This document shows, piece by piece, positions 14,381-28,343 of a DNA stretch of 32,000 nt. The first letter of the stretch is position 1. Each line of letters opens with the position of its first letter. Location: contig NZ_CP045650.1 in the NCBI RefSeq assembly GCF_009557235.1, forward strand, positions 180,001 through 212,000, given 5' to 3'. The position numbers and the translations under genes were made by a program. Under the pieces are notes generated by a model. It was given only the letters and a program-made list of their open reading frames with translations, was not told the DNA's origin and did not search any database. Source of the DNA: Acinetobacter wanghuae. Lineage in GTDB: Bacteria > Pseudomonadota > Gammaproteobacteria > Pseudomonadales > Moraxellaceae.

Positions 14381-14678
14381 TATTGTGTACCCCCCTATAA
14401 TATGCAACATGCTAACAAAAAATAACCGTTTTACAATATTTTATTGAAATATTACTTAAAAAATTAATGAATAAGTTTGTCTTTGTCATCTTCTAATTTG
14501 AGCTTTTTAATGCTTTTATATTTTTAAAATTAAAAACATTGATTGCAAATAAAAGCTTTAGCACTTGAACGGCATAGAGCCTATATATTTATTGAATGAT
14601 GACATATCTTAGATTTAAGTTGATGGTATATATATATCGAAAAGAGCAAATATTGATTTCATGCGTATATTTTGGAAA

Positions 14679-14825
14679 ATATACCGTCAAATGTACCGAC
14701 ATCATGATGATTACATCTTATTTTTTGATTTTTAAAAGGTATAAAAAAGAGCTTAAATCTATATAGATTCAAGCTCTTTAGGTTTGCTTTGGATTGCAGG
14801 TTTTTCGAATTTGGCGGTGAAAGAG
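14679..14825. repeat. att-like module A (left boundary)
   Basis: A 23-bp block, atataccgtcaaatgtaccgaca (14679-14701), is identical to 22482-22504. A minus-strand terminator hairpin lies at 14743-14779. A 21-bp block, tcgaatttggcggtgaaagag (14805-14825), is identical to 22610-22630. Spacing between the blocks is 104 bp here against 106 bp in module B. Confidence 0.8.
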
Positions 14826-14915
14826 TCCGTCAGGTTTAACATCTAAATACTTGAATTAGTTAAACATGAAATTTCATGTTTGTAAATGTACCGTCATTTA
14901 TACCGTCAAAATAAA

Positions 14916-17543
14916 TTATGCTTCCATTGTAGCTAAAGTTCGGGCTTTAAAGGCTTTAATCCATTTAGCTAACTTTTGAGTATCTTCTGTAATACTTTGG
15001 AGATCTGGAGATGGAGGTGGCATTTCATCAGGTTGTGAATGTTCGAATACAGAGTAGCGAGTCATGAGTTCATCAATTAACTCACAATCTTCAAGTTCAA
15101 TTTTTGCAAGAGCTGAAAGTCTTCCTTGAGTTTGGACGGCACGTCTAAACCGTGTAACAACTTCATTTAAAAGTATAGTTTCTACGCATTTTTCAACTTG
15201 AATCCTAAATTCACTACAATAGTGGTAAGCATCTTTTTCAAAGTTTTCTACATCACCATCTGCAATATATTTTTCTAACTTTGGAATTAAGATAGATAAC
15301 ATTTTATTAAGAGCTGTATCAGGTTTATCATTGCGTATTAAAGGATTCGAAACTATACCAGTTTCATTTTGAAGTCGTGTAATAGTCTCTACATGGATAT
15401 TTACAGAAGAGGGAACTCCACTAACCTTAGCTATCTCTTTTGCTTTCTTTTCCGCGCTTTGGACTAAAGCCAATAAAGACAATCTATGAGTAAAAATGAT
15501 AACTTGTCTTTCTTTAGACAGTTCAATAAGGCGTTCTACAACTTTTTCCTCAAAAACATGATCTAAGGAACAAATAGGATCATCAAATATAAAAGGTGTA
15601 TTCTGTCCAGAGCCCGTGATATCTGCTAAAAATGCCGCTAAGGCAACAACTCGGGCTTCTCCCTCACTTAAAACTTGGTGAGCTTGAGCTTCTTGTACTT
15701 TACCTTGAATGACTAGATCAAATAAAATTTTACCTTTTCCTTTATTTAAGCTGACAGGCTTAATTGGTATTCTAGTACCGCCTAGCTTTTTTAATTCTTC
15801 TTCAAATCTTTGAATATATTTTAATTCTAGTTCATCCGTTGCTAGTTCAGTTTTCTTACGAGTTAATGCATTAGTACTACAAAGTTTGATTGCTTTATCA
15901 AGTTCAGCAATAGTAAGTAAACGAGTTCTTTCAGTTAATAAAGCGCTTTTATTCTGATGCAACCATTGAGAGCTTTTTAAATCTTTTAGTTTCTGTTCTA
16001 AAGCTTTTCTAGAGTCATCTTCATTTACAGAGATTAATGATAGCTCTTCTTTTTCGGTTGCTTGCAACTTTCTTTTATAAGCCTCAGAAATGATACTCCA
16101 ATTAAACATTTTTAATTCATTAATAGAATCTTTGTGGATTACTGTTTCAATTAATACATTTAACTCTTCAAATAAGTCATTAATTAGTTCTTTATCAAGG
16201 TGTAATTTTTCTAAATGCAATGTCCATTCACCTTGAGTCAAACATTTTCTTAGGGTTGCTAAGAGTTGATCTTTTGCTTTTTCGGCTGATTTAGCCTCAG
16301 TTTCCAAACTACTTCGAATGAAATCTTCAAAACTATGAAGGCGAGCTTTGGCTATATCTGTTAAGGGTTGATGACAAAGTACACAATTTGCATGTTCACC
16401 TGTAAATGGGAAGTTATGGTTAGGGTAGGCGATATGTTCCGAGTATTCTTTTGCTTTATTCCATAAAGAAATCCAAGCTTCCTGACCTACTCCTTCTAAC
16501 TCACTATTAGAAAATACACGCTGTGCTTCTACTACAGCTAATTTTCGCTTATATGTAGCTTGGTGCTTAGCTTCTACTATAGATTCTAGAGACTTTATAG
16601 AAGTTAATTCCTTGAGCTTATCAATATATTGACCAGTTACTTTTAAGCTAATTTTAGTGGTTTCTATCTCTTTTAAAAGAGAGGGAATATCTTGCTTAGC
16701 TAGAGTTGCTTCAATCTGAACCCGTTCTTGGTCATCTGTATCAGTGTAAGTACATTTTGAGTCAATAAATTCAATTGTGGGCTTTGCACTCAGTGAATTT
16801 ATTAAATCTGATGCACTAGAAGAATAAAGATGTACAGGGATTTGAGGTAGATGTGAACTTAAAAGATCTTTCTTACTTTGCAAAGTTGAAGATACTTCAT
16901 CGCATACTTTTATAAGTGAAGATATAAACCTCATTCTCATAGGCTCATAAGTTGCTTCACTCTTGTTCATATGAATTTGAGCAGTTTTATTATCAAAAAT
17001 ATGAACATGTTTTAGATGTTGATCTTCTGAACCGTTAGGAAGCCATACATAAGTATAAGAAGGGGGATGATTATTCAAACATACCTCAATATCTGCTGAT
17101 ATAGGGTGTTGTTTATCTGCAAAAATATTACCTAAAATTTCTTCTTGTGCTTTTGATCCACAAATTTTTTTCAATAATCGAGAATAACTAGATTTTCCTG
17201 AACCATTTGAACCAAAAATTACGGTTAAATTACCTCCACCAAAATCTAATGTAGATCCCATTCTTATAGCATTAACACCTGAGATTTTATTGATTTTATT
17301 GATTCGGATTTGTGGTCTAATAGCAGCATTATTTAATGAGCCCGCACTAATAGTAGTAAATGCTCCCGCCAAATCTTTAGCTTCTTGTTCGCATAGAGTT
17401 ACAAAAGATGCTAATTCTGAATCATTAGGCATTCTTTTATTGGAAATTAAAAATTCAGCTACGCTTTGTAACCATTTGGGTCTTTCACAAATCCATTGTT
17501 CAAAATTATCTAGTTGTACGGTTGGTTGCCCCATCATATTCAT
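14916..17543 (-). CDS. AAA_13-family ABC-type ATPase with a coiled-coil CxxC hook; RloC/PrrC-like putative anticodon nuclease (abortive-infection type)
   Basis: The 875-aa protein has Walker A (FGSNGSGKSSYSRLL). A long coiled-coil insert contains NCVLCHQPL. It also has an ABC signature (LSEGEARVVALAAFLA), Walker B/D-loop (FIFDDPICSLDH) and an H-loop (IIFTHRL). The C-terminal domain has R/E then H motifs (EFRIQVEKCVE ... YSVFEHSQP) like the PrrC/RloC nuclease region. A GGGGGA Shine-Dalgarno lies upstream. Confidence 0.6.
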   Translation of the reverse strand: MNMMGQPTVQLDNFEQWICERPKWLQSVAEFLISNKRMPNDSELASFVTLCEQEAKDLAGAFTTISAGSLNNAAIRPQIRINKINKISGVNAIRMGSTLDFGGGNLTVIFGSNGSGKSSYSRLLKKICGSKAQEEILGNIFADKQHPISADIEVCLNNHPPSYTYVWLPNGSEDQHLKHVHIFDNKTAQIHMNKSEATYEPMRMRFISSLIKVCDEVSSTLQSKKDLLSSHLPQIPVHLYSSSASDLINSLSAKPTIEFIDSKCTYTDTDDQERVQIEATLAKQDIPSLLKEIETTKISLKVTGQYIDKLKELTSIKSLESIVEAKHQATYKRKLAVVEAQRVFSNSELEGVGQEAWISLWNKAKEYSEHIAYPNHNFPFTGEHANCVLCHQPLTDIAKARLHSFEDFIRSSLETEAKSAEKAKDQLLATLRKCLTQGEWTLHLEKLHLDKELINDLFEELNVLIETVIHKDSINELKMFNWSIISEAYKRKLQATEKEELSLISVNEDDSRKALEQKLKDLKSSQWLHQNKSALLTERTRLLTIAELDKAIKLCSTNALTRKKTELATDELELKYIQRFEEELKKLGGTRIPIKPVSLNKGKGKILFDLVIQGKVQEAQAHQVLSEGEARVVALAAFLADITGSGQNTPFIFDDPICSLDHVFEEKVVERLIELSKERQVIIFTHRLSLLALVQSAEKKAKEIAKVSGVPSSVNIHVETITRLQNETGIVSNPLIRNDKPDTALNKMLSILIPKLEKYIADGDVENFEKDAYHYCSEFRIQVEKCVETILLNEVVTRFRRAVQTQGRLSALAKIELEDCELIDELMTRYSVFEHSQPDEMPPPSPDLQSITEDTQKLAKWIKAFKARTLATMEA

Positions 17544-17747
17544 TAAATTTCCCCCAAGTTTTTATAAATTAAAATAATTTTAATCAATATAACTAATTTT
17601 ATTGATTAAAAGAAAGTAAGTTATAGGCAACTTTTGGAAACTTATTTGAGAAGTATAAGACCTTTCAAATTTGCACAAAATTTACGAATAGTCTCCATAG
17701 AGTAGAACGCTTTTATTCTAAGACTTCGCCGATTCTACTTATGAAAC

Positions 17748-17771
17748 AAAAGGGGAGTTGATTCCCCTTTT
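17748..17771 (-). terminator. Rho-independent terminator after the 240-aa gene
   Basis: The sequence is aaaaggggagttgattcccctttt. On the minus strand it is followed by ttttgttt. It separates the 240-aa gene from the ATPase gene. Confidence 0.8.
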
Positions 17772-17787
17772 GCTAAGTTATATAAGA

Positions 17788-18510
17788 TTAGCAACGTCTG
17801 TCGCGCTCATAATCAATCTTACGTAATACGGCATCTACATTACCTTCATAGAGTAAGGGAGGTAAAGCCATACCTTCATTGGGTGTCCATTGTTTTAGAT
17901 TTGAATAAGGGGCTGTCCAATATGCTACTGCACCGCAAATATATCCGTCTACTTTTGATGGATATTCTTTACGACTAATGTGTACATGAAGTTTGCAATG
18001 TGTGTCACTTGAGAAGCAATCCAAAGATACATCTGTAAACTTTAGTCCTTGAGATATCATGAAATTGCCTAAACCAGTATCTTCTCCGTTAAATGGTAAA
18101 AAATTAGCGCCTTTTAAATTATTGTTTTGCATGTCACGGACATCATCACTAAGTTTTGCTCGCTCTGGGCTTGCATCGAAAGCATCCCAATCAAACTCCT
18201 TTTCAATAGAGCTTTGAGTTTCATTTTCCTCAACTACCACATCGGATTCTGGTGCTTCTACCGCTGCACTTGATTCCGAGTCATTTTCTATTACAGTTGC
18301 ATTTGAAATAGATGGGGTTGTACTTGCAGATCTTTCTTTGTTTAAAGAAATCATGGAATTAATGATTGCGAAAGCGAGTCCGCATGAAAATAAAATGATT
18401 CCGTATTTATGCAAATTTGAAAATTTTGGTACCTTTAGCCCAAGAACAAAAAATAATGCCCCTAAAAGGATCATTAAAGTAAATATAACCGCCATTCTAA
18501 TCTCTGTCAT
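17788..18510 (-). CDS. Hypothetical membrane protein: two N-terminal TM helices, an acidic linker and a Cys-containing C-terminal domain
   Basis: The 240-aa protein has TM1 (VIFTLMILLGALFFVLGL) and TM2 (GIILFSCGLAFAIINSMISL). A Ser/Glu-rich linker follows, then a globular C-terminal region with 5 Cys. I recognise no family. Confidence 0.6.
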   Translation of the reverse strand: MTEIRMAVIFTLMILLGALFFVLGLKVPKFSNLHKYGIILFSCGLAFAIINSMISLNKERSASTTPSISNATVIENDSESSAAVEAPESDVVVEENETQSSIEKEFDWDAFDASPERAKLSDDVRDMQNNNLKGANFLPFNGEDTGLGNFMISQGLKFTDVSLDCFSSDTHCKLHVHISRKEYPSKVDGYICGAVAYWTAPYSNLKQWTPNEGMALPPLLYEGNVDAVLRKIDYERDRRC

Positions 18511-18712
18511 AAGTTATAAAGTGTTAAGACAGGTATGATATTTTGTGTGAAAAGTAAAATAAATCCGACTAAGGATCAATAATGTATGTCTATAAAGATA
18601 ATATATGTATAGGTATTAGGAAGATCAAAATTAGAGGATCAGTAAGAGTATATATAAAACAATATCTTACTGATCTTTTTCTTTTGGAAAGCTGAGGTTA
18701 AATCATTAATTT

Positions 18713-19933
18713 TTAGAAATTACGACTGAGGTTAAAAACAGCTTTTGACACAAGCTTATTCAGCTCCGAATAAGGTTGAATTCCATCTTCAAGCGAGCCT
18801 TTTTTATGTTTAATAGTTTCTTGGCCGAAGGGTTTGATCCGTTCCTCGTAATACTCTTTTAGCTTACTAGGAGGGTGAGAGTTCAAACGAGTGAAGCTCA
18901 AAAACTTAAATCCCTTTTTGATGATATTGGCTAAGTTTTCAATTGAATGATCTTTCACTTCAAACCTACCATTGTTCAAAGTTACTTCTACTCTTAAACG
19001 GTGTTCCTCTAACGGTAAAGGCTGTTTGTTGCTATCAGTCGTTTTTACATAAAGCCGATAACATAGCGGTGAGCCTTTAGGATTCACACCTAGACACCAA
19101 TCCTTATTAAACCGTTTAAGAAGCATGGACGGCGCATGCGGGACAGGATTGAACTTATTCCGAATATCCTCTTTGACGAACTTATAAATTCGAAAGTTAT
19201 CCGCCGTGGCTTCGTATCTAAGTGACTTATGGAGAGCTGAAAGCATAGCTTTACTTGGGGCATGATAGAAATCTAATGAAAGCTCAATATTTGCAATCTT
19301 CATTTGGCTAATGTCTGCACCGTATTGTCTTGCAAGTAATTCAGCAATTTTAAGCACATCATTCTTGTGCTTAATGTCATGCAGTCGAATAGTAAAAGTT
19401 AAATGCTCTTGGGCGATATGACTCTCATCCGCTTTTACATAATGTCTCGTGCCAGTTTTAAGCGTAAGAAAACTTTTGATCAGACTTCTTGCATTGGGTT
19501 TATGTGCAAAGGTGCATTTGCTTGGGTTCACTTCAAATGATAAATCTAGCCAATCAATGACTGCCTTAATTTGAATGGGTTTAAAGTTAATAGAAAAGCC
19601 TTTTTCCGACAGCTCTGGATTTTCGAAGTCCATGCGTTTTTCAATGCTATAACTAGAGACGCTGCTGTAAATTTCAGCTTCAATGATTTCCGCAACATCA
19701 GCATTGATTTGTAAACGCCGTTGGTAGGCATCTAAGAAAGTATGAAGTTCGGTAATTCCTGTTCTTTCTGAAAATGTTAAATGTTTTCCTGACGAGTTTT
19801 GAAGGGTTTCTTTAACGAGAAACTCAAATAAATAATTACCATTAGTATTCATTCGCTGTTCATCACACGATTTCACGGCATCATAGAATGATTCCGAGAG
19901 TTCTGAGCAATGTTGATCCTGATCCATATTCAT
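18713..19933 (-). CDS. Putative replication initiation protein (Rep_trans/PF02486-like)
   Basis: The listed ORF starts at 20011 (MCACPTCTH...). The AAGGA Shine-Dalgarno sits next to MNMDQDQ, so the start is at 19933 or 19927. The motifs VIDWLDLSFEV and HRLRVEVTL resemble the Rep_trans family. Its position next to alpA and int is typical for a satellite or IME replication module. Confidence 0.4.
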   Translation of the reverse strand: MNMDQDQHCSELSESFYDAVKSCDEQRMNTNGNYLFEFLVKETLQNSSGKHLTFSERTGITELHTFLDAYQRRLQINADVAEIIEAEIYSSVSSYSIEKRMDFENPELSEKGFSINFKPIQIKAVIDWLDLSFEVNPSKCTFAHKPNARSLIKSFLTLKTGTRHYVKADESHIAQEHLTFTIRLHDIKHKNDVLKIAELLARQYGADISQMKIANIELSLDFYHAPSKAMLSALHKSLRYEATADNFRIYKFVKEDIRNKFNPVPHAPSMLLKRFNKDWCLGVNPKGSPLCYRLYVKTTDSNKQPLPLEEHRLRVEVTLNNGRFEVKDHSIENLANIIKKGFKFLSFTRLNSHPPSKLKEYYEERIKPFGQETIKHKKGSLEDGIQPYSELNKLVSKAVFNLSRNF

Positions 19934-20018
19934 CCTTGATGATGTTGAGATTGAAAAAATTTGATTATTACAATTCAGAGGGGAATGTGTGCATGTAGGA
20001 CATGCACACAAGAAGAGG

Positions 20019-20186
20019 CTATTCGACTAGATATTTTTCGTAAGCAGTATCAATCAGAAGGGTTTTGAAGCCTTCATAAATGATTGTGTATTCCGTTGTC
20101 GAAGCGCTTTTATCTTCTACTTTTAGAATTTCACTATGCTCTAGAATATCTGCGAAAAGTTCAGTGCTAACAATCGTCAAGTTCAT
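20019..20186 (-). CDS. Small hypothetical protein (55 aa), not in the ORF track
   Basis: The sequence is MNLTIVSTELFADILEHSEILKVEDKSASTTEYTIIYEGFKTLLIDTAYEKYLVE-stop. Its ATG lies 2 nt after the TAA of the upstream 81-aa ORF, which suggests coupling. Confidence 0.4.
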   Translation of the reverse strand: MNLTIVSTELFADILEHSEILKVEDKSASTTEYTIIYEGFKTLLIDTAYEKYLVE

Positions 20187-20188
20187 GA

Positions 20189-20434
20189 TTAACCCTTGCT
20201 CACAGGTAAGTGACGAATTAACTCGGTTGATAACAGTTTTAAGTCGACTTTAATTTTGTTAATCATTAAGTAGTCAACCGTGTAATCAACAGCATTTTGA
20301 ATTCCTTCAGGAGTTGTAAGATCAAATGTCCCGTCATTCTCTTCTAAAAGATTACGGATCGTATCTTCGATAATCTCAGTTTTTAGATTATCTAAGATGC
20401 TTGCTTGGTTAAGGTTAGTTGTTGAGTTGTTCAT
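20189..20434 (-). CDS. Small hypothetical acidic protein (81 aa)
   Basis: The ORF is coupled to the 55-aa ORF. I recognise no motif. Confidence 0.45.
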   Translation of the reverse strand: MNNSTTNLNQASILDNLKTEIIEDTIRNLLEENDGTFDLTTPEGIQNAVDYTVDYLMINKIKVDLKLLSTELIRHLPVSKG

Positions 20435-20659
20435 TGAACAATTTCCTTTTAGTAATGCTTATTCCCAATGGATAAGCGTATGTAGATACCATCACTGGCG
20501 TTAATTCAACTATTTATTAAAAAACAGTTGGTTATGTAGCTCATTAATTAAGTGATTCAAGAATTTAGGCATGACTTAGCCCGATCACTATTTCTGACCA
20601 ATTTAAGTAATGAAAATGTTAGGTTTTAAATTTACAGATGATCTGTATAGGCGACTGGC

Positions 20660-20959
20660 TTATTGAATTGCATCAAGCCAATTTTGAATATCTTCGGATT
20701 TCCATGCGGTGATCCGATCTGATAGTCGATATGGCTGAGGAAAGCTTCCCTGACGAACTTTATCCCATATCGTTGACTCACCTAAGGGAAGTAATCCTAT
20801 GCGAGCGGGACGTGCTTTAATATGCCGAATTTTTCCGTCTTTAGTAATATATGATCGTGCTCTCCTCTCTGCAGTAGTAGCAATTTGACTCATGCGAAGC
20901 CATTGGCTTGGCATTCTAGTCTGATAATCTGTATTCAAAGTTTTAGATGAATTTAACAT
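20660..20959 (-). CDS. alpA: AlpA/MerR-type excisionase-like DNA-binding protein
   Basis: The C-terminal half, IGLLPLGESTIWDKVRQGSFPQPYRLSDRITAWKSEDIQNWLDAI, matches the AlpA (Phage_AlpA) HTH pattern. It sits directly upstream of int. The N-terminus is unusually long, so the true start may be internal. Confidence 0.7.
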   Translation of the reverse strand: MLNSSKTLNTDYQTRMPSQWLRMSQIATTAERRARSYITKDGKIRHIKARPARIGLLPLGESTIWDKVRQGSFPQPYRLSDRITAWKSEDIQNWLDAIQ

Positions 20960-21090
20960 GCTTAAAACACCCCTATTTCAAATTCAGTATAGGGAGAATT
21001 TTCTTACTTTTTGTTTGAAATATTTTTAAGTGATTGTTATTTGTTCTATCGCGTTTTGTGGGCTTAAATTTATTCTAATTAAGACTTTTT

Positions 21091-21125
21091 ACAGCACCAT
21101 AGCTAGTTAAAAACTATGGTGCTGT
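21091..21125. terminator. 12-bp perfect inverted repeat just downstream of int
   Basis: The arms are acagcaccatag (21091-21102) and ctatggtgctgt (21114-21125). There is no clear U-tract on the minus strand, so this is a terminator or a protein-binding site. Confidence 0.4.
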
Positions 21126-21137
21126 TACCAATATTTT

Positions 21138-22409
21138 TTAAGCTGATTTATTAAAAAGAATAATATTCTCTTCTTGAAGTGGTTTAAAAACAGATACGTC
21201 TCCACCTTGACGTAAAGTGTCCAAATAGTCTGCCCATAACTGCATTAGCTCACGTCTACGGCGTAAAAACTTAGTACGGTTATAAGCAGTCCCATTAGGA
21301 TCACGTACCGTATGCGCTAATTGGTGTTCAATAATATCAATACGATACTCAAGCTCTTCACCTAAAATTGTACGTGCGGTTGCTCTAAAGCCATGTGCCG
21401 TGTGTTTGCCTTTATAGCCCAGTCTATTGAGTGCTTGACGAATCGTATCCTCACTCATGCTTTCATGAGATGACTTCACACTAGGAAATACAAATTCTGA
21501 AGTTGTCCGCATATCTTCAAGCTGTTTCAAAATGTCAAAAGCTTGACGAGAGAGGGGAACGATATGCTCTTGATGAGTTTTACTCGCACGAAAGCACAGA
21601 CGTTGATTATCAAAATCGACATGCTCCCATAACAATTCACGGATCTCATTTGGACGTTGATAGATATATGCTGAAAGCTTCAACGCAAGCTCTGTTCTTA
21701 AACGTGCACGAGGATTCTCCGCATGATATCGCCAAATCTTTTGGAGCATTGTTTTAAGCTCTGATTCGCTTACTACCGCGTTGTGATTACCTTTAATAGG
21801 CTTGGGTAAGGTAATGTCATAAGCTGGGTTATATGTGATGAGACGGCGTTTAAGCGGAAGCTTTAAAACCATACCCATAATAGATTTGGCACGGCGAGCT
21901 GACTCGAGCGCACCGCGTTCAACAAGGCTATTCGTTACATCACGCTCAAGCTGTTCGACACTTAAATCAGTCACAGGTAATTTGCCAATAAATGGCAAGA
22001 TATCACGGTTGAGTTTGCGGATTGTTTCTCGGTCTACTTTCCCTTCAAGCTCACGAATTTTGAGCCATTCAGTAGCAAATTTTTCAAAGGTATTCTCAAG
22101 TTTTGCTTTTAGTTCATCTCGATGGTGATTACGTTCCTCTGCGGGATCAATGCCATCAGCAAGCATACGCTTAACTTCATCACGCTTTAGGCGTGCTTTT
22201 TCTAGTGTGACTTCATCATAGATACCCAAAGCTAAGGTATTTCGTTTTTGACTGATTGGGCGGCGGTAATCTAAACGCCAATATTTTGATCCATTCTTAT
22301 GAATGAAAAGATACAACCCACCACCATCAGCATACTTATTAGTGCTATCAGGATCATAAGCTAGATTTTTCACAGTTTTAGCTGTCAGTTTGTTGGATTG
22401 CTTAGCCAA
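21138..22409 (-). CDS. int: P4-type tyrosine integrase (DUF4102 N-domain plus phage integrase catalytic domain)
   Basis: The 423-aa protein contains GGGLYLFIHKNGSKYWRLDYRRP (the arm-binding domain) and, in the C-terminal region, HGFRATARTIL...HQLAH...AYNR. It has a TTG start 6-7 nt after a GAGG Shine-Dalgarno. Confidence 0.9.
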   Translation of the reverse strand: MAKQSNKLTAKTVKNLAYDPDSTNKYADGGGLYLFIHKNGSKYWRLDYRRPISQKRNTLALGIYDEVTLEKARLKRDEVKRMLADGIDPAEERNHHRDELKAKLENTFEKFATEWLKIRELEGKVDRETIRKLNRDILPFIGKLPVTDLSVEQLERDVTNSLVERGALESARRAKSIMGMVLKLPLKRRLITYNPAYDITLPKPIKGNHNAVVSESELKTMLQKIWRYHAENPRARLRTELALKLSAYIYQRPNEIRELLWEHVDFDNQRLCFRASKTHQEHIVPLSRQAFDILKQLEDMRTTSEFVFPSVKSSHESMSEDTIRQALNRLGYKGKHTAHGFRATARTILGEELEYRIDIIEHQLAHTVRDPNGTAYNRTKFLRRRRELMQLWADYLDTLRQGGDVSVFKPLQEENIILFNKSA

Positions 22410-22481
22410 TTTTTAACCTCATTTGACGGTATAAATTTCAGGAAAAACGGAACTCTCCTCATAAATAGGCAGTTTTTAATG

Positions 22482-22637
22482 ATATACCGTCAAATGTACC
22501 GACAACTATGTCGGGATACTACTAGACTGCGCCGTAGTGTACAGGCATAAAAAAAGGCTTGAACCCTTTAGATTCAAGCCTTTCGCACTACGGTACAGTC
22601 CCGTAAAAGTCGAATTTGGCGGTGAAAGAGGGAGTCG
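22482..22637. repeat. att-like module B (junction of island 1 and island 2), containing a tRNA 3'-end-like fragment
   Basis: A 23-bp block lies at 22482-22504. A nested hairpin has an outer stem ccgtagtg (22532-22539) / cactacgg (22586-22593) and an inner minus-strand terminator aaaggcttgaa (22553-22563) / ttcaagccttt (22573-22583) followed by T7. A 21-bp block lies at 22610-22630. The reverse complement of 22617-22637 is CGACTCCCTCTTTCACCGCCA, which reads as T-loop, T-stem, acceptor, G73 and CCA. No tRNA body follows it. Confidence 0.75.
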
Positions 22638-22748: not shown

Positions 22749-22943
22749 TTATTCTTTAAATGTATCATTCAAAGCTTGCTGCACGGCATCTACTCGTGAT
22801 TTGCAGGCTTTATAGGCAGACATGGATTCTTCAACGATTTGCATCAAATTATCAATGTCGGGCTCTTCTTGTGACTCAAGCAGTTCGGCATTCTTTTTAA
22901 GAATGTCATAGCCCTCTTTAAACGATAATTCTTTCTTATTCAT
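22749..22943 (-). CDS. xseB: Exodeoxyribonuclease VII small subunit-like protein
   Basis: The 64-aa helical protein contains LSFKEGYDILKKNAELLESQEEPDIDNLMQIVEESMSAYKACKSRVDAVQQAL. This follows the XseB pattern (SFEEAL..LE.IV..LE.G.l.Leesl..fe.G..L...c...L..ae.kv). It overlaps xseA by 8 nt. Confidence 0.8.
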   Translation of the reverse strand: MNKKELSFKEGYDILKKNAELLESQEEPDIDNLMQIVEESMSAYKACKSRVDAVQQALNDTFKE

Positions 22944-24198
22944 TACTTGATACCTGTATCACGTTGGCTTCAATGATCCCATCCTGTAATTCTACATGGA
23001 TACTGTCACCTGAAATTTGCTGGATAGAGCGAATAGCTTTGCCTTGGCTGCGGACTATACCGTAACCTTTTGCCATCACATTATGTGGATTTTGCACGAG
23101 AGTCTCACGCATTAATGATTCAACCTCATTGGAGGCTAACTTAATTTTCTGTTGGGCTAAGTAATGTGTTGAGCCTTTAATTATATCTAAAGTCTTATTC
23201 GCTTGATTGATCTGTCCATGCGCAAGGGTCTTGATCATTTTAATATACTGATCATTTTGGCTCTGATACGCCGTAATTTGATGCTGAGATAAAAGTTTGA
23301 TGGTCTGTAGTGATTCGATTACTTCCTGAGTACGTTCAATAATCAAATTGCGAATACCACCAATCACTTTACTTGGAGTATCAAATGATCGATGAGCGAC
23401 TTCATCTAATATCGTTCGATCCTTCTCGTGACCAATTCCGACCCAAATAGGGACTGATCGTTTAGCTAGAAGTGCAGCTAATTTGTAGTCATTCAGATAA
23501 GCCAAGTCATTTACCGCTCCGCCACCACGAATAATAACGATCAGATCAGGAGCAGTGTCAAAGTTTGAAGCCCATTGACGTAAACCATTACCTAGTGAAT
23601 CAATGATACTTATAGCAGCAGTATTTCCTTGGAAGGTCGCATTGTGATAAATGAAATGACATACACCGGCTTTATCTAATGTATCTGCATCTTTCTTAAA
23701 ATCACCTAATCCTGCGGCTTTTTCAGGAGCTATGACCAATACATTTTGGATGTCGAAAGGAGTAGGAATAGATTTATTTTTATCTAACAAACTCTCAGTG
23801 CGTAATCGTTCTAATATCTGTTGATAACGGCGTGCAATATCACCTAGGGTATAGCTTGAATCAATATCTTCAACATTGACTGAAAAGCCGTATTGAGGAT
23901 CAAACTTAGCTTTAATTTTAATTAATACGTTTAAATCCTTTGATAGCTCAATACCACTTTCACGTTCGAACTTTAAAACCATCTTGGCGGCAGAGAACTT
24001 CCAGATGGTTGCTTTGCAGCTGGCAATGACCTTATCTGTATTTTCATCTTTCTCAGCCAGCTCTAAATAATAGTGACCACCTTTAATACTGAGGTTTCGG
24101 ATTTCAGCTTTTACCCATACCGGTTCATCAAAAGCTATACGGATAACTTCTTGGACCGTTGCAAGGTATGCGCTTAAAGAAAGTTGAGATTCTGTCAT
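22936..24198 (-). CDS. xseA: Exodeoxyribonuclease VII large subunit-like protein (divergent)
   Basis: The 420-aa protein has an N-terminal OB fold (VWVKAEIRNLSIKGGHYYLELAEKD). The catalytic core is IIRGGGAVNDLAYLNDYKLAALLAKRSVPIWVGIGHEKDRTILDEVAHRSFDTPSKV, comparable to E. coli GRGGGSLEDLW...VGHETDVT...APTPSAA. The C-terminus has AKGYGIV, comparable to ARGYSV. Confidence 0.85.
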   Translation of the reverse strand: MTESQLSLSAYLATVQEVIRIAFDEPVWVKAEIRNLSIKGGHYYLELAEKDENTDKVIASCKATIWKFSAAKMVLKFERESGIELSKDLNVLIKIKAKFDPQYGFSVNVEDIDSSYTLGDIARRYQQILERLRTESLLDKNKSIPTPFDIQNVLVIAPEKAAGLGDFKKDADTLDKAGVCHFIYHNATFQGNTAAISIIDSLGNGLRQWASNFDTAPDLIVIIRGGGAVNDLAYLNDYKLAALLAKRSVPIWVGIGHEKDRTILDEVAHRSFDTPSKVIGGIRNLIIERTQEVIESLQTIKLLSQHQITAYQSQNDQYIKMIKTLAHGQINQANKTLDIIKGSTHYLAQQKIKLASNEVESLMRETLVQNPHNVMAKGYGIVRSQGKAIRSIQQISGDSIHVELQDGIIEANVIQVSSNE

Positions 24199-25470
24199 TT
24201 AGTTTTTTAAATTTTTTATTATTAATAAATATGCTATACAGCAGAAAAAAACAATTGAAAAAAAGTAAAAGTAATTTATTTTAGAAAATAAACTAAATAA
24301 AAAATCTATATTAATAATGCAGACACCAATTAAAAAACCAATAAATAGAGACACTATCAATAAAAAAATTTGATGACATAAAATTTTTTGATTTACAGGC
24401 TTAATTTCCTTTTTCCATTCAGTGGATAATTCCTTAGGAAGTTTAGCGGATTCATTGAATTGCTTAATTTGAATTCTAATATGCGTTAGATTGTAGGCTT
24501 GTTGACATCCAGAATAAAATACCATCATTAAATACACTAGAAAACCAGCATAGATATAGGTATTAACTTTATCAGGATCTTTAAAAAAAGTAATAGCTGA
24601 AATAGTTAATGGAATAGCGAGAATTTGACTTTGTAGATCAGTAATAACCTTATTAACTTTATTTAGAAATTCTTCGGAATGTTTATTAATTTTTTCAATA
24701 AATTTTGAGTACTTAAAATCATCTAGATATAAACTATATTTAGATTTTGTATCATTGATGACATTTTCTATATTTTTGATTAAATTGAAAATTCTATCAT
24801 TTTTATCTATTGTTATTAGATTCTCTATAATTTCAGTAGCAACAATAACATATAGTTCACTTTTATGAGCATTTAGGGGTTCAGTAACATCACCCTCCGT
24901 TTTTTGTTCAGTAATCCAATTTAAAAACTCTTGGAGAGATTTGGTTAATTTTTTATTTTCTTTGTATAGTTTGACTGAATCAAGGTATTTTTCAAAGGCA
25001 CGTGGTTGTACAGGAACTTCACAGTAATTTTTGGAGAAAAAAATTAAAACATTGTCTTTCTGGTAGTAATTTTCAGAAAGACATCGTATAAATTTAGTAA
25101 ATAACTTTAACTCAGGAATATAATCAGCCTGACCATTCTTCATCTCATTAAGATTCTCATATATTACATCAGCATCACTGCAATTAATTTTTTTAGTGAT
25201 ATCCAATTTATGCTGAATGTAACTTTGATAAGTCGCGTAATTACTTGAGTCTTGTATTAAGTTCAGTCTAAATAGGCTAGTCTCATTTGCTTTCGGCGTT
25301 ATTCCATCAAACTTAAAATCGTCCCCAAAAGTTTGCTCGATGAATACATTAATAAGAGCGATATCAGCCGCTGTGACAGGTGTTACTGTCCCAGAGATAC
25401 TGTTGTTTTTGAAATCGAGATCGTTACTTAAAGCAAGTAATTCCTCAATCTTCGCTTTCTTTTGGCTCAT
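24199..25470 (-). CDS. Hypothetical multi-pass membrane protein: a ~280-aa cytoplasmic domain plus about 4 C-terminal TM helices
   Basis: The 423-aa protein has hydrophobic segments ILAIPLTISAITFF, YIYAGFLVYLMMVFYSG, IFLLIVSLFIGFLIGVCIINI and YFYFFSIVFFCCIAYLLII. Its TAA abuts the xseA ATG. Its start is overlapped by 26 nt of the upstream gene. The coding DNA is extremely AT-rich. Confidence 0.7.
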   Translation of the reverse strand: MSQKKAKIEELLALSNDLDFKNNSISGTVTPVTAADIALINVFIEQTFGDDFKFDGITPKANETSLFRLNLIQDSSNYATYQSYIQHKLDITKKINCSDADVIYENLNEMKNGQADYIPELKLFTKFIRCLSENYYQKDNVLIFFSKNYCEVPVQPRAFEKYLDSVKLYKENKKLTKSLQEFLNWITEQKTEGDVTEPLNAHKSELYVIVATEIIENLITIDKNDRIFNLIKNIENVINDTKSKYSLYLDDFKYSKFIEKINKHSEEFLNKVNKVITDLQSQILAIPLTISAITFFKDPDKVNTYIYAGFLVYLMMVFYSGCQQAYNLTHIRIQIKQFNESAKLPKELSTEWKKEIKPVNQKILCHQIFLLIVSLFIGFLIGVCIINIDFLFSLFSKINYFYFFSIVFFCCIAYLLIIKNLKN

Positions 25471-26680
25471 TTATTGTACCTTGGTTCAGCTGCTGCCTTA
25501 ATGTTGCCACATCACGCAGCTCAACCTTAATTTTGACATATGGGCTATCGGGATCTTCCTCATTAAGCTCTATTGTATTTCCTGCATGCGATCGCATACC
25601 AGAAATTTTTATTGGCTCACTACCTTCGACTTTAATATCGAATTTTAACTGACCTAAACCTTTTACAGTTGTCCTATCAGGAAAGAATACATTACCAACT
25701 TCATCATCTTTAAATCCATTTGCTATTCTATAATTCTTAAATAAATTTGAAGATAAATCTATGTCACGCTGCGCTGCAATTTCATTAATGATTGGATCAA
25801 TATCACTTGTGATGTTAACAGGAAGTTTCTGTTCAGCTTTGTCGGCGAGCAAATTATAAACTAACTTATCTATAACATCTCTATCATTGTTAGCAAATGG
25901 GCTTGTGCCTAGATATCCTCTCAAGGTAAGCATTAGGTGTTTTGTAGTTTTAGCATCGTCAATTTTGTATTTAACAGGAATAAAGTTTTGTACATATTGT
26001 GGAATCTGTTCTTTACCTTTTTGAACCCACCAAACATAATTCGGTAAATCAGTGGTATTGTCTTCTGTTGCATTATTTTCTTGTTCTTTTAATTTTATAT
26101 AATGGTCATACATGCCATTAATATCTACTTTTAAAGCAATTTTAAAAGTATTCGAATTTAAGCTTGTTGTATCTAATATTTCGCCTGTATTCTCATCTAT
26201 AGTTATATCATCTTGTACATTTAACAAGGCAATATAAAGATAAAAAATATCATTTTTCTCATATAATATGATTGGAACATGGTCACCAGTTGTCGCTGGC
26301 ATGCTATAAACATGATGATCTAAGGCATGTGTAATAACTGCCAGATAACGGCGATATTGAGTTTGATAAATGTTTTCGACTGCTAAGTTTGTTTTTTCTA
26401 CATCGTGCCTATCGTCTAAAAGGTTTCCATCAAAAAGATACTCCTTGGAGATATTACTTAGCGTAGGCGTTTTTGTAAAATCAGATGCACATGAACTAGC
26501 ATATCCATATTTTTCCCGTTGAGTCTCTAAAAAATTAATCAGCTTTATTGCATTTTTATTATGTGGGTGCAAATTTGCGCGTATTAAAGGAGCTGTTCGA
26601 TTTTCTCTTTTTTGATGCTGTTCACGAATGATTTTATTAATAATCATTGCATGAACAATAATGTCATTCGAACCACTCAT
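25445..26680 (-). CDS. NA37/NdpA(YejK)-like nucleoid-associated DNA-binding protein with an ~80-aa C-terminal extension
   Basis: The 411-aa protein starts with IIVHAMIINKIIRE (family pattern: hydrophobic-H-x-I). It contains PIILYEKNDIFYLYIALLNVQDDITIDENTGEILDT...FKIALKVDINGM...NYVWWVQKGKEQIPQYVQNFI. This parallels YejK: LLFCHY...LLVAVLNN...RVNENLDI...ARIDLTEW...[22 protein letters not shown]. The assignment is from memory of the family, not a search. Confidence 0.5.
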   Translation of the reverse strand: MSGSNDIIVHAMIINKIIREQHQKRENRTAPLIRANLHPHNKNAIKLINFLETQREKYGYASSCASDFTKTPTLSNISKEYLFDGNLLDDRHDVEKTNLAVENIYQTQYRRYLAVITHALDHHVYSMPATTGDHVPIILYEKNDIFYLYIALLNVQDDITIDENTGEILDTTSLNSNTFKIALKVDINGMYDHYIKLKEQENNATEDNTTDLPNYVWWVQKGKEQIPQYVQNFIPVKYKIDDAKTTKHLMLTLRGYLGTSPFANNDRDVIDKLVYNLLADKAEQKLPVNITSDIDPIINEIAAQRDIDLSSNLFKNYRIANGFKDDEVGNVFFPDRTTVKGLGQLKFDIKVEGSEPIKISGMRSHAGNTIELNEEDPDSPYVKIKVELRDVATLRQQLNQGTINEPKESED

Positions 26681-26755: not shown

Positions 26756-27241
26756 TTACGTTTGAACGGGAATCAAATTTAATTTCCACTGAATTCCAAA
26801 TTGTTCATTTAGATACTGTGATATAGCCTCTTTACAAGTTTCGTATTGAGTAGCCTTATAAAGAACTGCATTGCATCCAGTTGAAACGCCGTATCGAGTA
26901 AAACCTTCAATGGCATCATCAGCAGTAGTTACATTAGTAAGGAATATATGTGCCTTACCATTTTTAATAAATCTATTGATGTCCTTTAGTTTTGGGGCAA
27001 TTTCTTCAGGAAGAATAATTTCCACAACATGGTATGGGTCTTTAGAGACTGGCTGGATTATGTAATCTATGCCTCTGGTCATCCCACCACTAAAACTTTG
27101 AGCGGTTTCATCTGCGGATTCAACATCATCAAAGAGTCCTGTCTCAATCGCTTCTTGTTGTGACTCTGTAGTAGTAAGCCAACCGTCATCATCCGGAATG
27201 ATGTAGCAGTTTTCTGAAATTAGTTTAATTATATAAGACAT
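26756..27241 (-). CDS. Hypothetical acidic protein (161 aa)
   Basis: It is a clean ORF lying 75 nt upstream of the NA37-like gene on the same strand. I recognise no family. Confidence 0.5.
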   Translation of the reverse strand: MSYIIKLISENCYIIPDDDGWLTTTESQQEAIETGLFDDVESADETAQSFSGGMTRGIDYIIQPVSKDPYHVVEIILPEEIAPKLKDINRFIKNGKAHIFLTNVTTADDAIEGFTRYGVSTGCNAVLYKATQYETCKEAISQYLNEQFGIQWKLNLIPVQT

Positions 27242-27336: not shown

Positions 27337-27615
27337 TTAATTCTTCATCGCATCGTAATCATGGCGATGCAGGGCGTATTGTTGATCTAAATAAATAGCG
27401 AAATCCTCAAGCCTGACCATCCACGGCGCCTTGGCTGATTGTTCAAGTTTAAATGCTGGAAATGGCAATTCATGAAAATTAGCTTTCTTGCGTGCTGTTT
27501 TCACATCCATATGAGTGAAGAAGTCCTCAACTATAGTATCTAAATGTACTACAGGGGAGACATATCTCATGCATAGCATTGTGAAAGTATTAAGCTTGGG
27601 ATCTCGTATCTTCAT
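27337..27615 (-). CDS. PrtN-family (pyocin activator-like) DNA-binding protein
   Basis: The 92-aa protein contains FTMLCMRY...VHLDTIVEDFFTHMDVKTARKKANFHELPFPAFKLEQSAKAPWMVRLEDFAIYLD. This matches the PrtN pattern (DYFsHLt...RK...gEi.LP..R.e.SQK...gVhl.DLA.YID). Confidence 0.55.
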   Translation of the reverse strand: MKIRDPKLNTFTMLCMRYVSPVVHLDTIVEDFFTHMDVKTARKKANFHELPFPAFKLEQSAKAPWMVRLEDFAIYLDQQYALHRHDYDAMKN

Positions 27616-27909
27616 TTAATTTATTCTCTTTCTGCCACGTTTATTCGTTAGGTTTGTTTTTAAAAGTGGTATTACTTTATTCGGGTCATAAAGGTGTTTG
27701 CCTGCTGTACCGACATTAAAAGAACCAATTTTTTCTATGATAGTTGTTCTAGACATTGGGAACCTTTTAAGAATCCAAGCGATATCAACGAGATCGGGGT
27801 ATTGTTCTATTTCCAATGCAATAACTGTAGCGCCGTAGATTGAATCTCCTAGGCATATTTTGGGTGGATTTTCTGACTCGATAGTGATGATATATTTTTG
27901 CTTAAACAT
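27616..27909 (-). CDS. Hypothetical small protein with a possible HTH and a basic tail
   Basis: The 97-aa protein contains MSRTTIIEKIG, a possible HTH, and ends in KRGRKRIN. Its stop abuts the PrtN-like start, which suggests translational coupling. It is the first gene of the leftward operon. Confidence 0.5.
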   Translation of the reverse strand: MFKQKYIITIESENPPKICLGDSIYGATVIALEIEQYPDLVDIAWILKRFPMSRTTIIEKIGSFNVGTAGKHLYDPNKVIPLLKTNLTNKRGRKRIN

Positions 27910-28012
27910 AATTTAAAACTCTGATTTTTTAATAGATATGACCGATAAGTAATAGATAGGTCCTTTGATACCTTATGTCCGTACTTTTGGTTGTTTTTCA
28001 TACATGGATTAT

Positions 28013-28083
28013 GTTACTACATCAAAAAAATGCTGTTACCACATCAAAACCTGTATATCTGTTTTTCTGTTACCACATCAAAA
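28013..28083 (+). repeat. Three iteron-like direct repeats, GTTAC(T/C)ACATCAAAA
   Basis: Copies lie at 28013-28027, 28035-28049 and 28069-28083. Start-to-start spacing is 22 and 34 bp, roughly whole helical turns. Confidence 0.85.
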
Positions 28084-28238: not shown

Positions 28239-28295
28239 GGGAATATACCCAATATTGGTATCATTCCGAAAACGGTAATATTCCCAATATTGGGG
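28239..28295. promoter_or_regulatory. Two 22-bp operator-like units, each containing the palindrome CCAATATTGG
   Basis: The units are gggaatatacccaatattggta (28239-28260) and ggtaatattcccaatattgggg (28274-28295), 35 bp apart. The second contains the perfect 12-bp palindrome cccaatattggg. Confidence 0.7.
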
Positions 28296-28343
28296 TTTTG
28301 AACGATCCCGTTTTTGGGATTTTGAATGTACCCGTTTTTGGGA
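28296..28343 (+). repeat. Tandem 24-bp direct repeat (21/24 identical)
   Basis: The units are ttttgaacgatcccgtttttggga (28296-28319) and ttttgaatgtacccgtttttggga (28320-28343). Confidence 0.9.

What the first reader, a model, noticed from the sequence alone, without database searches (positions are those of the whole stretch)
22749..26680. Coupled four-gene cassette, NA37-like / multi-TM protein / XseA / XseB, at the edge of a mobile element: candidate undescribed defence or anti-MGE system
Four minus-strand genes are packed with almost no intergenic space.
- The 411-aa NA37/NdpA-like DNA-binding protein overlaps the next gene by 26 nt.
- The TAA of the 423-aa protein (soluble domain plus about 4 TM helices) directly abuts the ATG of a divergent ExoVII large subunit.
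- That large subunit overlaps a 64-aa XseB by 8 nt.

ExoVII is a housekeeping ssDNA-specific exonuclease. In enterobacteria xseA and xseB are unlinked, and they are not partnered with membrane or nucleoid proteins.

Here the pair sits between a tRNA-fragment att junction with a P4-integrase island carrying an RloC-like gene (left) and phage regulatory genes (right). That is the classic location of defence cargo. A DNA binder, a membrane protein and a nuclease is the sensor/effector logic of many abortive-infection systems. I cannot match the combination to any named system from memory.
Basis: partly seen in the sequence, partly recalled or inferred. Interest (0 to 1): 0.88.

Follow-up and report, generated by a model that had tools for sequence, protein, structure and literature searches.

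The report
Known-type phage-defence pair beside phage-borne ExoVII
The four tightly packed genes are not one new defence system: they are a two-gene anti-phage module of a recently described kind (a nucleoid-protein sensor plus a membrane effector) sitting in a variable cargo slot, next to an exonuclease VII gene pair that many Acinetobacter prophages carry beside such slots.

Summary
Four minus-strand ORFs sit at the stated coordinates with a 26-nt overlap, a 0-nt gap and an 8-nt overlap, and the family assignments are correct.

1. **The NA37-like + multi-TM pair is a self-contained module.** NA37 directly precedes the TM gene in 12/12 contexts, 8 of them without xseAB. It is a remote relative of E. 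coli DS-1 (validated, Science 2026) and has the architecture of type II PANGU (bioRxiv 2026), so it is not undescribed.
2. **xseA–xseB linkage is genus-wide** (80/80 species loci). This copy belongs to a clade carried inside prophages: 24 IMG/VR viral contigs, and some genomes hold two copies.
3. **The slots flanking phage-borne xseAB are hypervariable defence hotspots.** They hold retrons, RmrA, a type IV restriction enzyme, PDC-S15/S52 and others. The pair, with its lower GC, is one cargo among many.

The TM/xseA abutment recurs only in this element type, and part of the pair has been swapped as a block at that site.

Verdict: a new member of a known kind, of modest interest. The phage-borne ExoVII "anchor" is the more curious by-product.

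The parts
25445..26680 (-). NA37/YejK-like nucleoid-associated protein (411 aa); putative sensor, Pag2A/DS-1A-like
   Evidence: Pfam NA37 33.5 bits (GA 24.6) and phrog_3767 50.7 bits. The AF2 model's only significant PDB match is YejK 9be2, E = 2.6e-9. hhalign against DS-1A: E = 4.8e-5 over 232 columns. It always sits directly upstream of the TM gene (12/12 contexts).
24199..25470 (-). DS1_2/Pag2B-like protein (423 aa): mildly acidic soluble N-terminal part (1-283) plus four C-terminal hydrophobic helices; putative membrane effector
   Evidence: NCBIfam DS1_2_antiphage 36.5 bits, E = 3e-9, well below the equivalog cutoff of 315. BLASTP against DS-1B: E = 5e-6. Family profile against DS-1B: hhalign probability 92%, E = 8e-7. 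phrog_5023 63 bits. About 640 clusters (50% identity) family-wide. AF2 pLDDT 81 with no PDB fold match. Residues 1-283 have net charge -6 and pI 5.3, like DS-1B. GC is 27.5% against 38.7% for xseA.
22936..24198 (-). xseA, exonuclease VII large subunit (420 aa), of the prophage-associated Acinetobacter clade
   Evidence: TIGR00237 229 bits (cutoff 180), with RGGG/GHEKD present. It is 73-88% identical to copies inside 24 IMG/VR viral contigs. It clusters with copies in phage contexts.
22749..22943 (-). xseB, exonuclease VII small subunit (64 aa), Acinetobacter variant
   Evidence: NF045605 xseB_Acin_var 102 bits (cutoff 40). xseB follows xseA in 80/80 species loci.
26756..27241 (-). 161-aa FEKKY-domain protein; conserved left flank of the cargo slot in this element type, not part of the pair elsewhere
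   Evidence: NCBIfam FEKKY_dom 27.3 bits (cutoff 26), phrog_2983 and phrog_2989. It is 87-88% identical in L010/L011 and also present in L045 with a different cargo gene.
27337..27909 (-). PrtN-like excisionase (27337-27615) and 97-aa gene (27616-27909): start of the leftward operon that ends in xseAB
   Evidence: Pfam PyocinActivator 64.9 bits, phrog_1300 excisionase, phrog_17994. Syntenic in A. johnsonii, L011 and viral contigs L100/L107/L115.
22610..22630 (.). att-like 21-bp direct repeat with a tRNA-3'-end-like sequence, 119 nt beyond xseB; end of the phage-like element and junction with the P4-type island
   Evidence: Exact repeat at 14805-14825. A related motif followed by a terminator lies about 280 nt downstream of xseB in A. 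johnsonii.
14826..22609 (-). Separate 7.8-kb P4-type integrase island (int, AlpA, PDC-S06 cargo) inserted in tandem at the same att; not part of the cassette
   Evidence: Integrase domains and AlpA. The 875-aa protein scores 1002 bits against PADLOC PDC-S06. Direct repeats.

Best explanation
The region holds two separable units inside a phage-derived element.

**Unit 1 (25445-26680 + 24199-25470).** This is a two-gene abortive-infection module of the DS-1 / type II PANGU kind. By analogy with PANGU (shown in E. coli, inferred here), the mechanism would be:
1. The YejK-like protein sits on the nucleoid.
2. An infecting phage degrades the host chromosome, which releases the protein.
3. The freed protein binds the acidic N-terminal domain of the membrane partner.
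4. The membrane partner is activated and stops growth of the infected cell, probably by damaging the membrane.

**Unit 2 (xseA-xseB).** This is an intact exonuclease VII of a lineage that Acinetobacter temperate phages carry. It forms the conserved flank of hypervariable cargo slots that hold many different defence systems.

The pair was inserted into the slot between the 161-aa gene and xseA and replaced xseA's own upstream region. The four genes are therefore probably co-transcribed, but that reflects an accident of insertion and not functional coupling.
For: **Separability.** NA37 precedes TM in 12/12 contexts, and 8 of those lack xseAB. xseAB lacks an upstream pair in 80/80 species loci and 24/24 viral contigs.

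**Identity of the pair.**
- NCBIfam DS1_2 hit.
- BLASTP and hhalign to DS-1B, and hhalign to DS-1A.
- YejK fold.
- Intermediate relatives score 54-77 bits on both DS-1 models.
- DS-1 is a validated two-gene unit with the same gene order. Type II PANGU is a NAP plus a TM effector, and both genes are required.

**xseAB is phage-borne.**
- It sits centrally in 45-54 kb viral contigs, between Q/replication genes and terminase/portal genes. Sequenced phage Acba_3 has the same backbone.
- Two-copy genomes exist, with one copy in a chromosomal context and one in a phage context.

**Hotspot.** The slot between xseB and the Q-like gene is 166-4697 bp long. Its 59 ORFs fall into 46 clusters, including retron RTs, RmrA, PDC-S52, a type IV REase, HNH and NOV_C.

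**Insertion signature.**
- The pair's GC is 27.5-33%, against 37-40% for its neighbours.
- The conserved xseA upstream region seen in three other species is replaced by the TM gene's 3' end.
- A. johnsonii has a 237-aa gene in the slot instead.
Against: - Similarity to DS-1 is remote: 36.5 bits against a cutoff of 315, and the NA37 protein does not hit DS1_1 at E <= 0.01.
- No experiment exists for this clade.
- The exact TM-stop/xseA-ATG abutment recurs in at least three diverged versions (L010, L011-13).
- A different NA37/TM subfamily lies directly downstream of xseB in L080. That gives two independent associations with xseAB, which a hotspot explains but does not prove.
- I could not count xseA copies in the A. 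wanghuae genome, so this copy might be the cell's only ExoVII.
- IMG/VR prophage boundaries are predictions.
Confidence: 0.75

Rival explanations
1. One reading: all four genes form one defence system in which ExoVII is the nuclease effector, or a processing enzyme, downstream of the NA37 sensor and the membrane protein.
For: - The packing is tight, with no terminator or conserved promoter between the TM gene and xseA.
- The same junction is kept in diverged variants L010-L013.
- A second pair subfamily sits next to xseB in L080.
- PANGU senses DNA degradation, so a nuclease partner is conceivable.
Against: - The pair occurs without xseAB in 8 contexts, and xseAB occurs without the pair in about 100 loci.
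- DS-1 and type II PANGU protect as two-gene units.
- None of the ten largest NAP-operon clusters includes ExoVII.
- Gene order relative to xseAB differs between the window and L080.
- The GC break falls exactly at the pair.
Confidence: 0.07
2. xseAB is simply the host's housekeeping ExoVII at a fixed chromosomal site. Mobile elements, including the one carrying the pair, have integrated on both sides of it.
For: - XseA/XseB are 88/87% identical to A. johnsonii, like the flanking core genes (80-89%), and lie next to the same tRNA-Thr/methyltransferase/pirin block.
- Scores exceed the equivalog cutoffs.
- Other lineages have xseAB in stable chromosomal contexts.
Against: - Only 1 of 80 species loci shares that core block.
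- xseAB lies centrally in about 18 viral contigs whose phage gene order is continuous across it.
- The att-like repeat lies beyond xseB, which places xseAB inside the element.
- WIN-type viral contigs end just after xseB.
- Two-copy genomes exist, and this copy clusters with the phage-context copies.
Confidence: 0.13
3. The NA37/TM pair is not a defence system. It would be a prophage function for its own biology, for example nucleoid remodelling, lysogeny control or superinfection exclusion at the membrane.
For: - It is always found in temperate-phage or prophage contexts, once directly after a cI-like repressor.
- No PADLOC hit.
- The clade is very divergent from the validated DS-1.
Against: - It is homologous to a validated anti-phage unit and shares the PANGU II architecture.
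- It occupies slots that otherwise hold recognised defence genes.
- Superinfection exclusion would itself be a form of defence.
Confidence: 0.05

Closest known systems
DS-1 (DefensePredictor; E. coli WP_000355468.1 + WP_000150292.1; NCBIfam NF053868/NF053869)
   Same: A two-gene unit with the NA37/YejK-domain gene first and a roughly 400-aa partner second. The partner shares the HKSER motif and the helical stretch leading into C-terminal hydrophobic helices (BLASTP E = 5e-6; hhalign 92%). Its soluble part has a similar mildly acidic charge.
   Different: Very remote. DS1_2 scores 36.5 bits against a cutoff of 315, and the NA37 protein misses the DS1_1 model. There is no N-terminal zinc-ribbon-like extension as in DS-1A. 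The last two TM helices are much more hydrophobic. The host genus differs, and this clade is untested.
Type II PANGU (Pag2A NAP sensor + Pag2B TM effector; bioRxiv 10.64898/2026.04.06.716658)
   Same: A bicistronic operon encoding a YejK-like NAP and an effector with an acidic N-terminal domain and a C-terminal TM region, located in mobile or defence contexts. This is the best available mechanistic model: release of the sensor from a degraded nucleoid, followed by abortive infection.
   Different: Sequence relationship not tested, because no sequences were available to me. The acidity of the N-terminal domain here is modest (net -6). How Pag2B is activated is unknown even in the reference system.
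Lambda RexA/RexB (own knowledge)
   Same: A prophage-encoded pair made of a soluble DNA-associated sensor and a multi-TM membrane protein. It is expressed from the lysogen, lies next to the repressor (as in locus L004), and gives an abortive-infection outcome.
   Different: No sequence or fold relationship was detected. This is an analogy only.
Housekeeping exonuclease VII (XseA/XseB)
   Same: Full-length XseA with the OB fold, catalytic domain and RGGG/GHEKD motifs, plus XseB. Scores exceed the NCBIfam equivalog and exception cutoffs.
   Different: This copy belongs to a clade embedded in prophages next to defence hotspots. Its role there (recombination, counter-defence, or simple hitch-hiking) is unknown.

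Membership tests
DS-1 (NCBIfam equivalogs) | Component 2 scores at least 315 bits on NF053869 DS1_2_antiphage | tested here: not met
   36.5 bits, E = 3e-9. The positive control, E. coli DS-1B, scores 375 bits.
DS-1 (NCBIfam equivalogs) | Component 1 scores at least 330 bits on NF053868 DS1_1_antiphage | tested here: not met
   No hit at E <= 0.01. The control DS-1A scores 451 bits. hhalign of the family against DS-1A gives E = 4.8e-5, probability 68%.
DS-1-like / PANGU type II superfamily | Adjacent or overlapping two-gene unit: NA37/YejK-like gene followed by the partner gene | tested here: met
   26-nt overlap here. The same order holds in 12/12 contexts across four genera and phages.
DS-1-like / PANGU type II superfamily | Component 1 has the YejK/NA37 fold | tested here: met
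   Pfam 33.5 bits, above the gathering score of 24.6. Foldseek 9be2 E = 2.6e-9, probability 1.00.
DS-1-like / PANGU type II superfamily | Component 2 is homologous to DS-1B and carries C-terminal TM helices | tested here: met
   BLASTP E = 5e-6; hhalign probability 92% over 166 columns. Hydrophobic segments at 281-298, 302-323, 361-386 and 394-420.
PANGU type II | Acidic, DNA-mimicking N-terminal domain of the effector that binds the NAP | tested here: inconclusive
   Residues 1-283 have net charge -6 and pI 5.3, similar to DS-1B (net -8). Binding is not testable here.
PANGU type II | Both genes required, abortive infection, sensor relocalises when the host genome is degraded | not testable with these tools
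   Shown for E. coli PANGU-Ecu only.
PANGU type II | Sequence homology to Pag2A/Pag2B | not tested
   No sequences are held for the preprint.
Exonuclease VII | XseA at or above the TIGR00237 cutoff, XseB at or above the NF045605 cutoff, catalytic motifs present | tested here: met
   229 bits against 180; 102 bits against 40. RGGG at residue 224 and GHEKD at residue 256.
Proposed four-gene NA37/TM/XseA/XseB system | The four families co-occur as a unit across genomes | tested here: not met
   0/80 species loci and 0/24 viral contigs have the pair upstream of xseA, and one locus has a different pair downstream. Eight pair contexts lack xseAB. The four-gene arrangement occurs only in one element type (window, L010-L013).
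PADLOC v2 known/candidate systems | Any of the four proteins matches a PADLOC model | tested here: not met
   No hit at E <= 0.1. The database (2023) predates DS-1 and PANGU.

The most novel reading that the evidence does not exclude
Phage-borne ExoVII may not be a passive flank. It could be a shared helper for the variable defence cargo beside it. It might generate or clear the DNA-degradation signal that NAP sensors read, mature retron msDNA (ExoVII does this for some retrons), or shield the prophage from its own cargo. That would explain why it is the invariant neighbour of these hotspots, and why two different NA37/TM subfamilies have landed next to it independently.
Probability: 0.1. Interest if true: 0.75.

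Novelty: new member of a known kind. Interest (0 to 1): 0.36.

Why it matters
- **Extends a new defence class.** The result extends the newly described NAP-sensor/membrane-effector class (DS-1, type II PANGU) to a very divergent, Acinetobacter-specific, prophage-borne clade. Current tools miss this clade: PADLOC finds nothing and the NCBIfam scores fall far below the cutoffs.
- **Guards against over-calling.** It shows that tight packing alone can create an apparent "four-gene system".
- **Gives a practical landmark.** A conserved phage-borne xseAB marks hypervariable defence hotspots in Acinetobacter prophages. These hold retrons, RmrA, restriction enzymes, PDC candidates and many unknown genes. 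The landmark is useful for mining new systems in a genus where phage therapy is being pursued.

Tried and rejected
**Searches that gave nothing**
- PADLOC on all four proteins and their neighbours: no hit.
- Megablast of the right flank against sequenced phages: no match.
- Foldseek of the TM-protein model against the PDB: nothing significant, best E = 0.05. The KwaB hit for the NA37 model is not significant, E = 1.3.
- The promoter/terminator scan was uninformative: 21 promoter-like sites against 30 expected.

**An interpretation I revised**
- My first conclusion was that xseAB is the core housekeeping gene with insertions around it. It rested on identity to A. johnsonii matching that of the core genes.
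- I downgraded it after the species-level scan showed variable contexts and two-copy genomes, and after the IMG/VR scan showed xseAB inside prophages.

**Checks with limited yield**
- The 21-bp att motif is not a general feature downstream of xseB. It occurs only in the window, with a variant in A. johnsonii.
- The apparent similarity between the TM gene's 3' end and the native xseA promoter region is probably AT-rich chance, because the C-terminus is native to the family.

**Things I could not obtain**
- The phage spectrum of DS-1 from the supplement.
- Pag2A/Pag2B sequences.

Full report
**Observation.** The window comes from Acinetobacter wanghuae. Four minus-strand ORFs sit exactly where stated:
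- xseB, 22749-22943;
- xseA, 22936-24198;
- a 423-aa protein, 24199-25470;
- a 411-aa protein, 25445-26680.

The junctions are a 26-nt overlap, a direct stop/start abutment and an 8-nt overlap. Profile searches confirm XseA (TIGR00237 229 bits, cutoff 180), XseB (NCBIfam 'Acinetobacter variant' model, 102 bits, cutoff 40) and NA37 (33.5 bits, gathering score 24.6). The 423-aa protein has no Pfam domain. It has four C-terminal hydrophobic segments, and its AlphaFold model (pLDDT 81) shows an N-terminal alpha/beta domain and a long helical stalk, with no PDB fold match. The NA37-like model matches only E. coli YejK (9be2, E = 2.6e-9). To the left, a 7.8-kb P4-type integrase island is bounded by a 21-bp direct repeat at 14805-14825 and 22610-22630. 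To the right lie a PrtN-like excisionase and phage regulatory genes.

**The NA37/TM pair is an independent module.** I fetched the contexts of homologues of the TM protein. The NA37-like gene directly precedes the TM gene, usually overlapping it, in 12 of 12 contexts. Eight of these have no xseAB nearby:
- P2-like prophages, between ogr/gpD and the regulatory region (L001, L002, L014);
- a lambdoid prophage, directly after the cI-like repressor (L004);
- a Psychrobacter locus beside integrase genes (L006);
- Klebsiella phage Kp4865-4 and Sinorhizobium phage phi2LM21;
- two IMG/VR contigs.

An exhaustive profile search finds about 640 clusters (50% identity) in the family.

**The pair belongs to a described kind.**
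- *DS-1.* NCBIfam gave a weak hit of the TM protein to 'DS1_2_antiphage'. The DefensePredictor paper (PMC13092281) defines DS-1 as an E. coli two-gene unit: a 391-aa NA37/YejK protein followed by a 404-aa hypothetical protein. It was cloned and validated as anti-phage.
- *Direct comparison.* The window protein against DS-1B gives BLASTP E = 5e-6, across the shared HKSER motif and the helices leading into the membrane region. The family profile against DS-1B gives hhalign probability 92%, E = 8e-7. The NA37 family against DS-1A gives E = 4.8e-5.
- *Bridging relatives.* Pairs from Psychrobacter and from the Klebsiella and Sinorhizobium phages score 54-77 bits on both DS-1 models. The E. coli controls score 451 and 375 bits.
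- *PANGU.* A 2026 preprint (10.64898/2026.04.06.716658) defines PANGU systems. Type II is a YejK-like sensor (Pag2A) plus a membrane effector (Pag2B) with an acidic DNA-mimic N-terminal domain. Both genes are needed, and the phenotype is abortive infection. T4 escapes through EndoII mutations, and the sensor leaves the nucleoid on infection. Pag2A binds the N-terminal domain of Pag2B with a KD of 19 nM.
- *Limits.* The window protein's soluble part is mildly acidic (net -6, pI 5.3), like DS-1B. Membership of the strict DS-1 equivalogs fails on score. The architecture and remote homology are met.

**xseAB.** xseB follows xseA in 80/80 species-level loci, so linkage is a genus trait. I first read xseAB as core, because it is 87-88% identical to A. 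johnsonii, like the neighbouring core genes, and lies by the same tRNA-Thr/methyltransferase/pirin block. The wider scan changed that view:
- Only that one species shares the block.
- No flanking family occurs in more than 17 of 82 loci.
- Several genomes hold two copies.
- Lineage-specific clades sit in ordinary chromosomal contexts: LysE, lipid A acyltransferase and Cu-ATPase; aconitase B and TamB; an amino-acid permease.
- The clade containing the window's copy sits in phage contexts.

In 'type II' loci xseAB lies, in opposite orientation, between Q-like/RusA-like/replication genes and HNH/metallopeptidase/TerS/TerL/portal genes. Sequenced phage Acba_3 has the same backbone, with a Dam methylase at that position. 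Twenty-four IMG/VR viral contigs carry this xseA at 73-88% identity. About 18 of them, mostly 45-54 kb long, carry it centrally in the type II arrangement. Three are window-type, roughly 26-kb contigs that end just after xseB. The att-like repeat lies beyond xseB. So xseAB here is most likely the terminal gene pair of the phage-derived element.

**A defence hotspot.** In 30 type II loci the gap between xseB and the Q-like gene ranges from 166 to 4697 bp. It holds 59 ORFs in 46 clusters. Recognisable contents are:
- retron RTs of types I-C and I-A;
- RmrA and PDC-S52;
- an MrcB-N/HNH type IV restriction enzyme;
- an HNH nuclease;
- a NOV_C-domain protein.

In a window-type locus the same position holds PDC-S15. 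In window-type elements the slot upstream of xseA also varies. It holds the NA37/TM pair here and in L010-L013, a 237-aa gene in A. johnsonii, and a 344-aa gene in strain MB5.

The pair also differs in composition from its neighbours: 27.5-33% GC against 37-40%. The xseA upstream region conserved in three other species is replaced here by the TM gene's 3' end.

Between the window and L011, nucleotide homology breaks from about NA37 residue 51 to about TM residue 201. L011's NA37 is closer to the P2-prophage type (57%) than to the window's (42%). This amounts to a block swap that keeps the sensor together with the effector's N-terminal domain, which fits the two parts interacting.

**Weighing the four-gene idea.** In its favour:
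- The abutting junction persists in diverged variants.
- Strain UBA3106 carries a different NA37/TM subfamily immediately downstream of xseB.

Against it:
- The pair and xseAB are each found alone far more often than together.
- Gene order differs between the two associations.
- The validated relatives work as two genes.
- No large NAP-operon cluster includes ExoVII.

I give the four-gene model about 7%.

**Verdict.** The finding is a real, tightly packed gene set. It resolves into a divergent member of a known two-gene defence class lying next to a phage-borne ExoVII that flanks defence hotspots. Interest is modest. The ExoVII 'anchor' deserves separate follow-up.

Noticed in passing
window 22749-24198; loci L021-L037, L056, L100-L123: A clade of intact xseA-xseB is carried inside Acinetobacter prophages, between Q-like/replication genes and packaging genes, and flanks a hypervariable defence-cargo slot (166-4697 bp; 46 gene clusters). 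I found no paper describing phage-borne ExoVII in this genus.
   Followed up: partly
L034/L038, L021/L040, L036/L046, L030/L080, L058/L076: Five genomes carry two xseAB copies. In strain A7.4 both copies are in mobile contexts and are sister sequences. In ANC 3781 one copy is in a prophage and one in a chromosomal context. In several species only a phage-context copy was detected.
   Followed up: partly
window 14826-22609: The P4-type integrase island's 875-aa 'RloC-like' ATPase is PADLOC candidate PDC-S06 (1002 bits). The adjacent 240-aa and 432-aa proteins match nothing.
   Followed up: partly
window 14670-14825 vs 22473-22630: About 160 bp next to each copy of the 21-bp repeat is also duplicated (families D1 and D2). 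This suggests tandem or serial insertions at one att site. Neither copy is a complete tRNA, and the motif resembles a tRNA 3' end that is not tRNA-Thr.
   Followed up: partly
L080 9529-11744: A different NA37/TM subfamily, closest to the Klebsiella and Sinorhizobium phage pairs, sits immediately downstream of xseB. This is a second, independent association of this system type with xseAB.
   Followed up: partly
L011 2921-5372 vs window 24199-26680: Mosaic exchange: the body of NA37 and the N-terminal ~200 residues of the TM protein are swapped as a block, while the flanks (161-aa gene, TM C-terminus, xseAB) stay 76-78% identical at the nucleotide level.
   Followed up: yes
L009 11447-12097: A DUF6988 protein lies directly downstream of xseB. 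DUF6988 is one of the domains newly validated in defence by DefensePredictor.
   Followed up: no
L050-L072 (A. calcoaceticus-baumannii complex), genes just upstream of xseA: Even in the stable ACB chromosomal context, an S24/HTH repressor-like gene (223 aa) and a 77-aa gene sit directly upstream of xseA. This hints at an old phage remnant there too.
   Followed up: no
window 28011-28083 and 28282-28329: There are three copies of a 17-nt repeat (CTGTTACCACATCAAAA) and tandem 24-nt repeats in the divergent intergenic region between the leftward operon and the repressor-like gene. They look like operators.
   Followed up: no
L018 628-2806 (Sinorhizobium phage phi2LM21 p68/p67); L017 2605-4804 (Klebsiella phage Kp4865-4): Sequenced temperate phages carry DS-1-like pairs (54-65 bits on both NCBIfam DS-1 models). 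They are annotated only as 'nucleoid-associated protein' plus 'hypothetical protein', or not annotated at all.
   Followed up: partly
window 26756-27241: The 161-aa protein combines two PHROG families (2983 and 2989) and just passes the NCBIfam FEKKY-domain cutoff. It is a conserved flank of the cargo slot, and its function is unknown.
   Followed up: no
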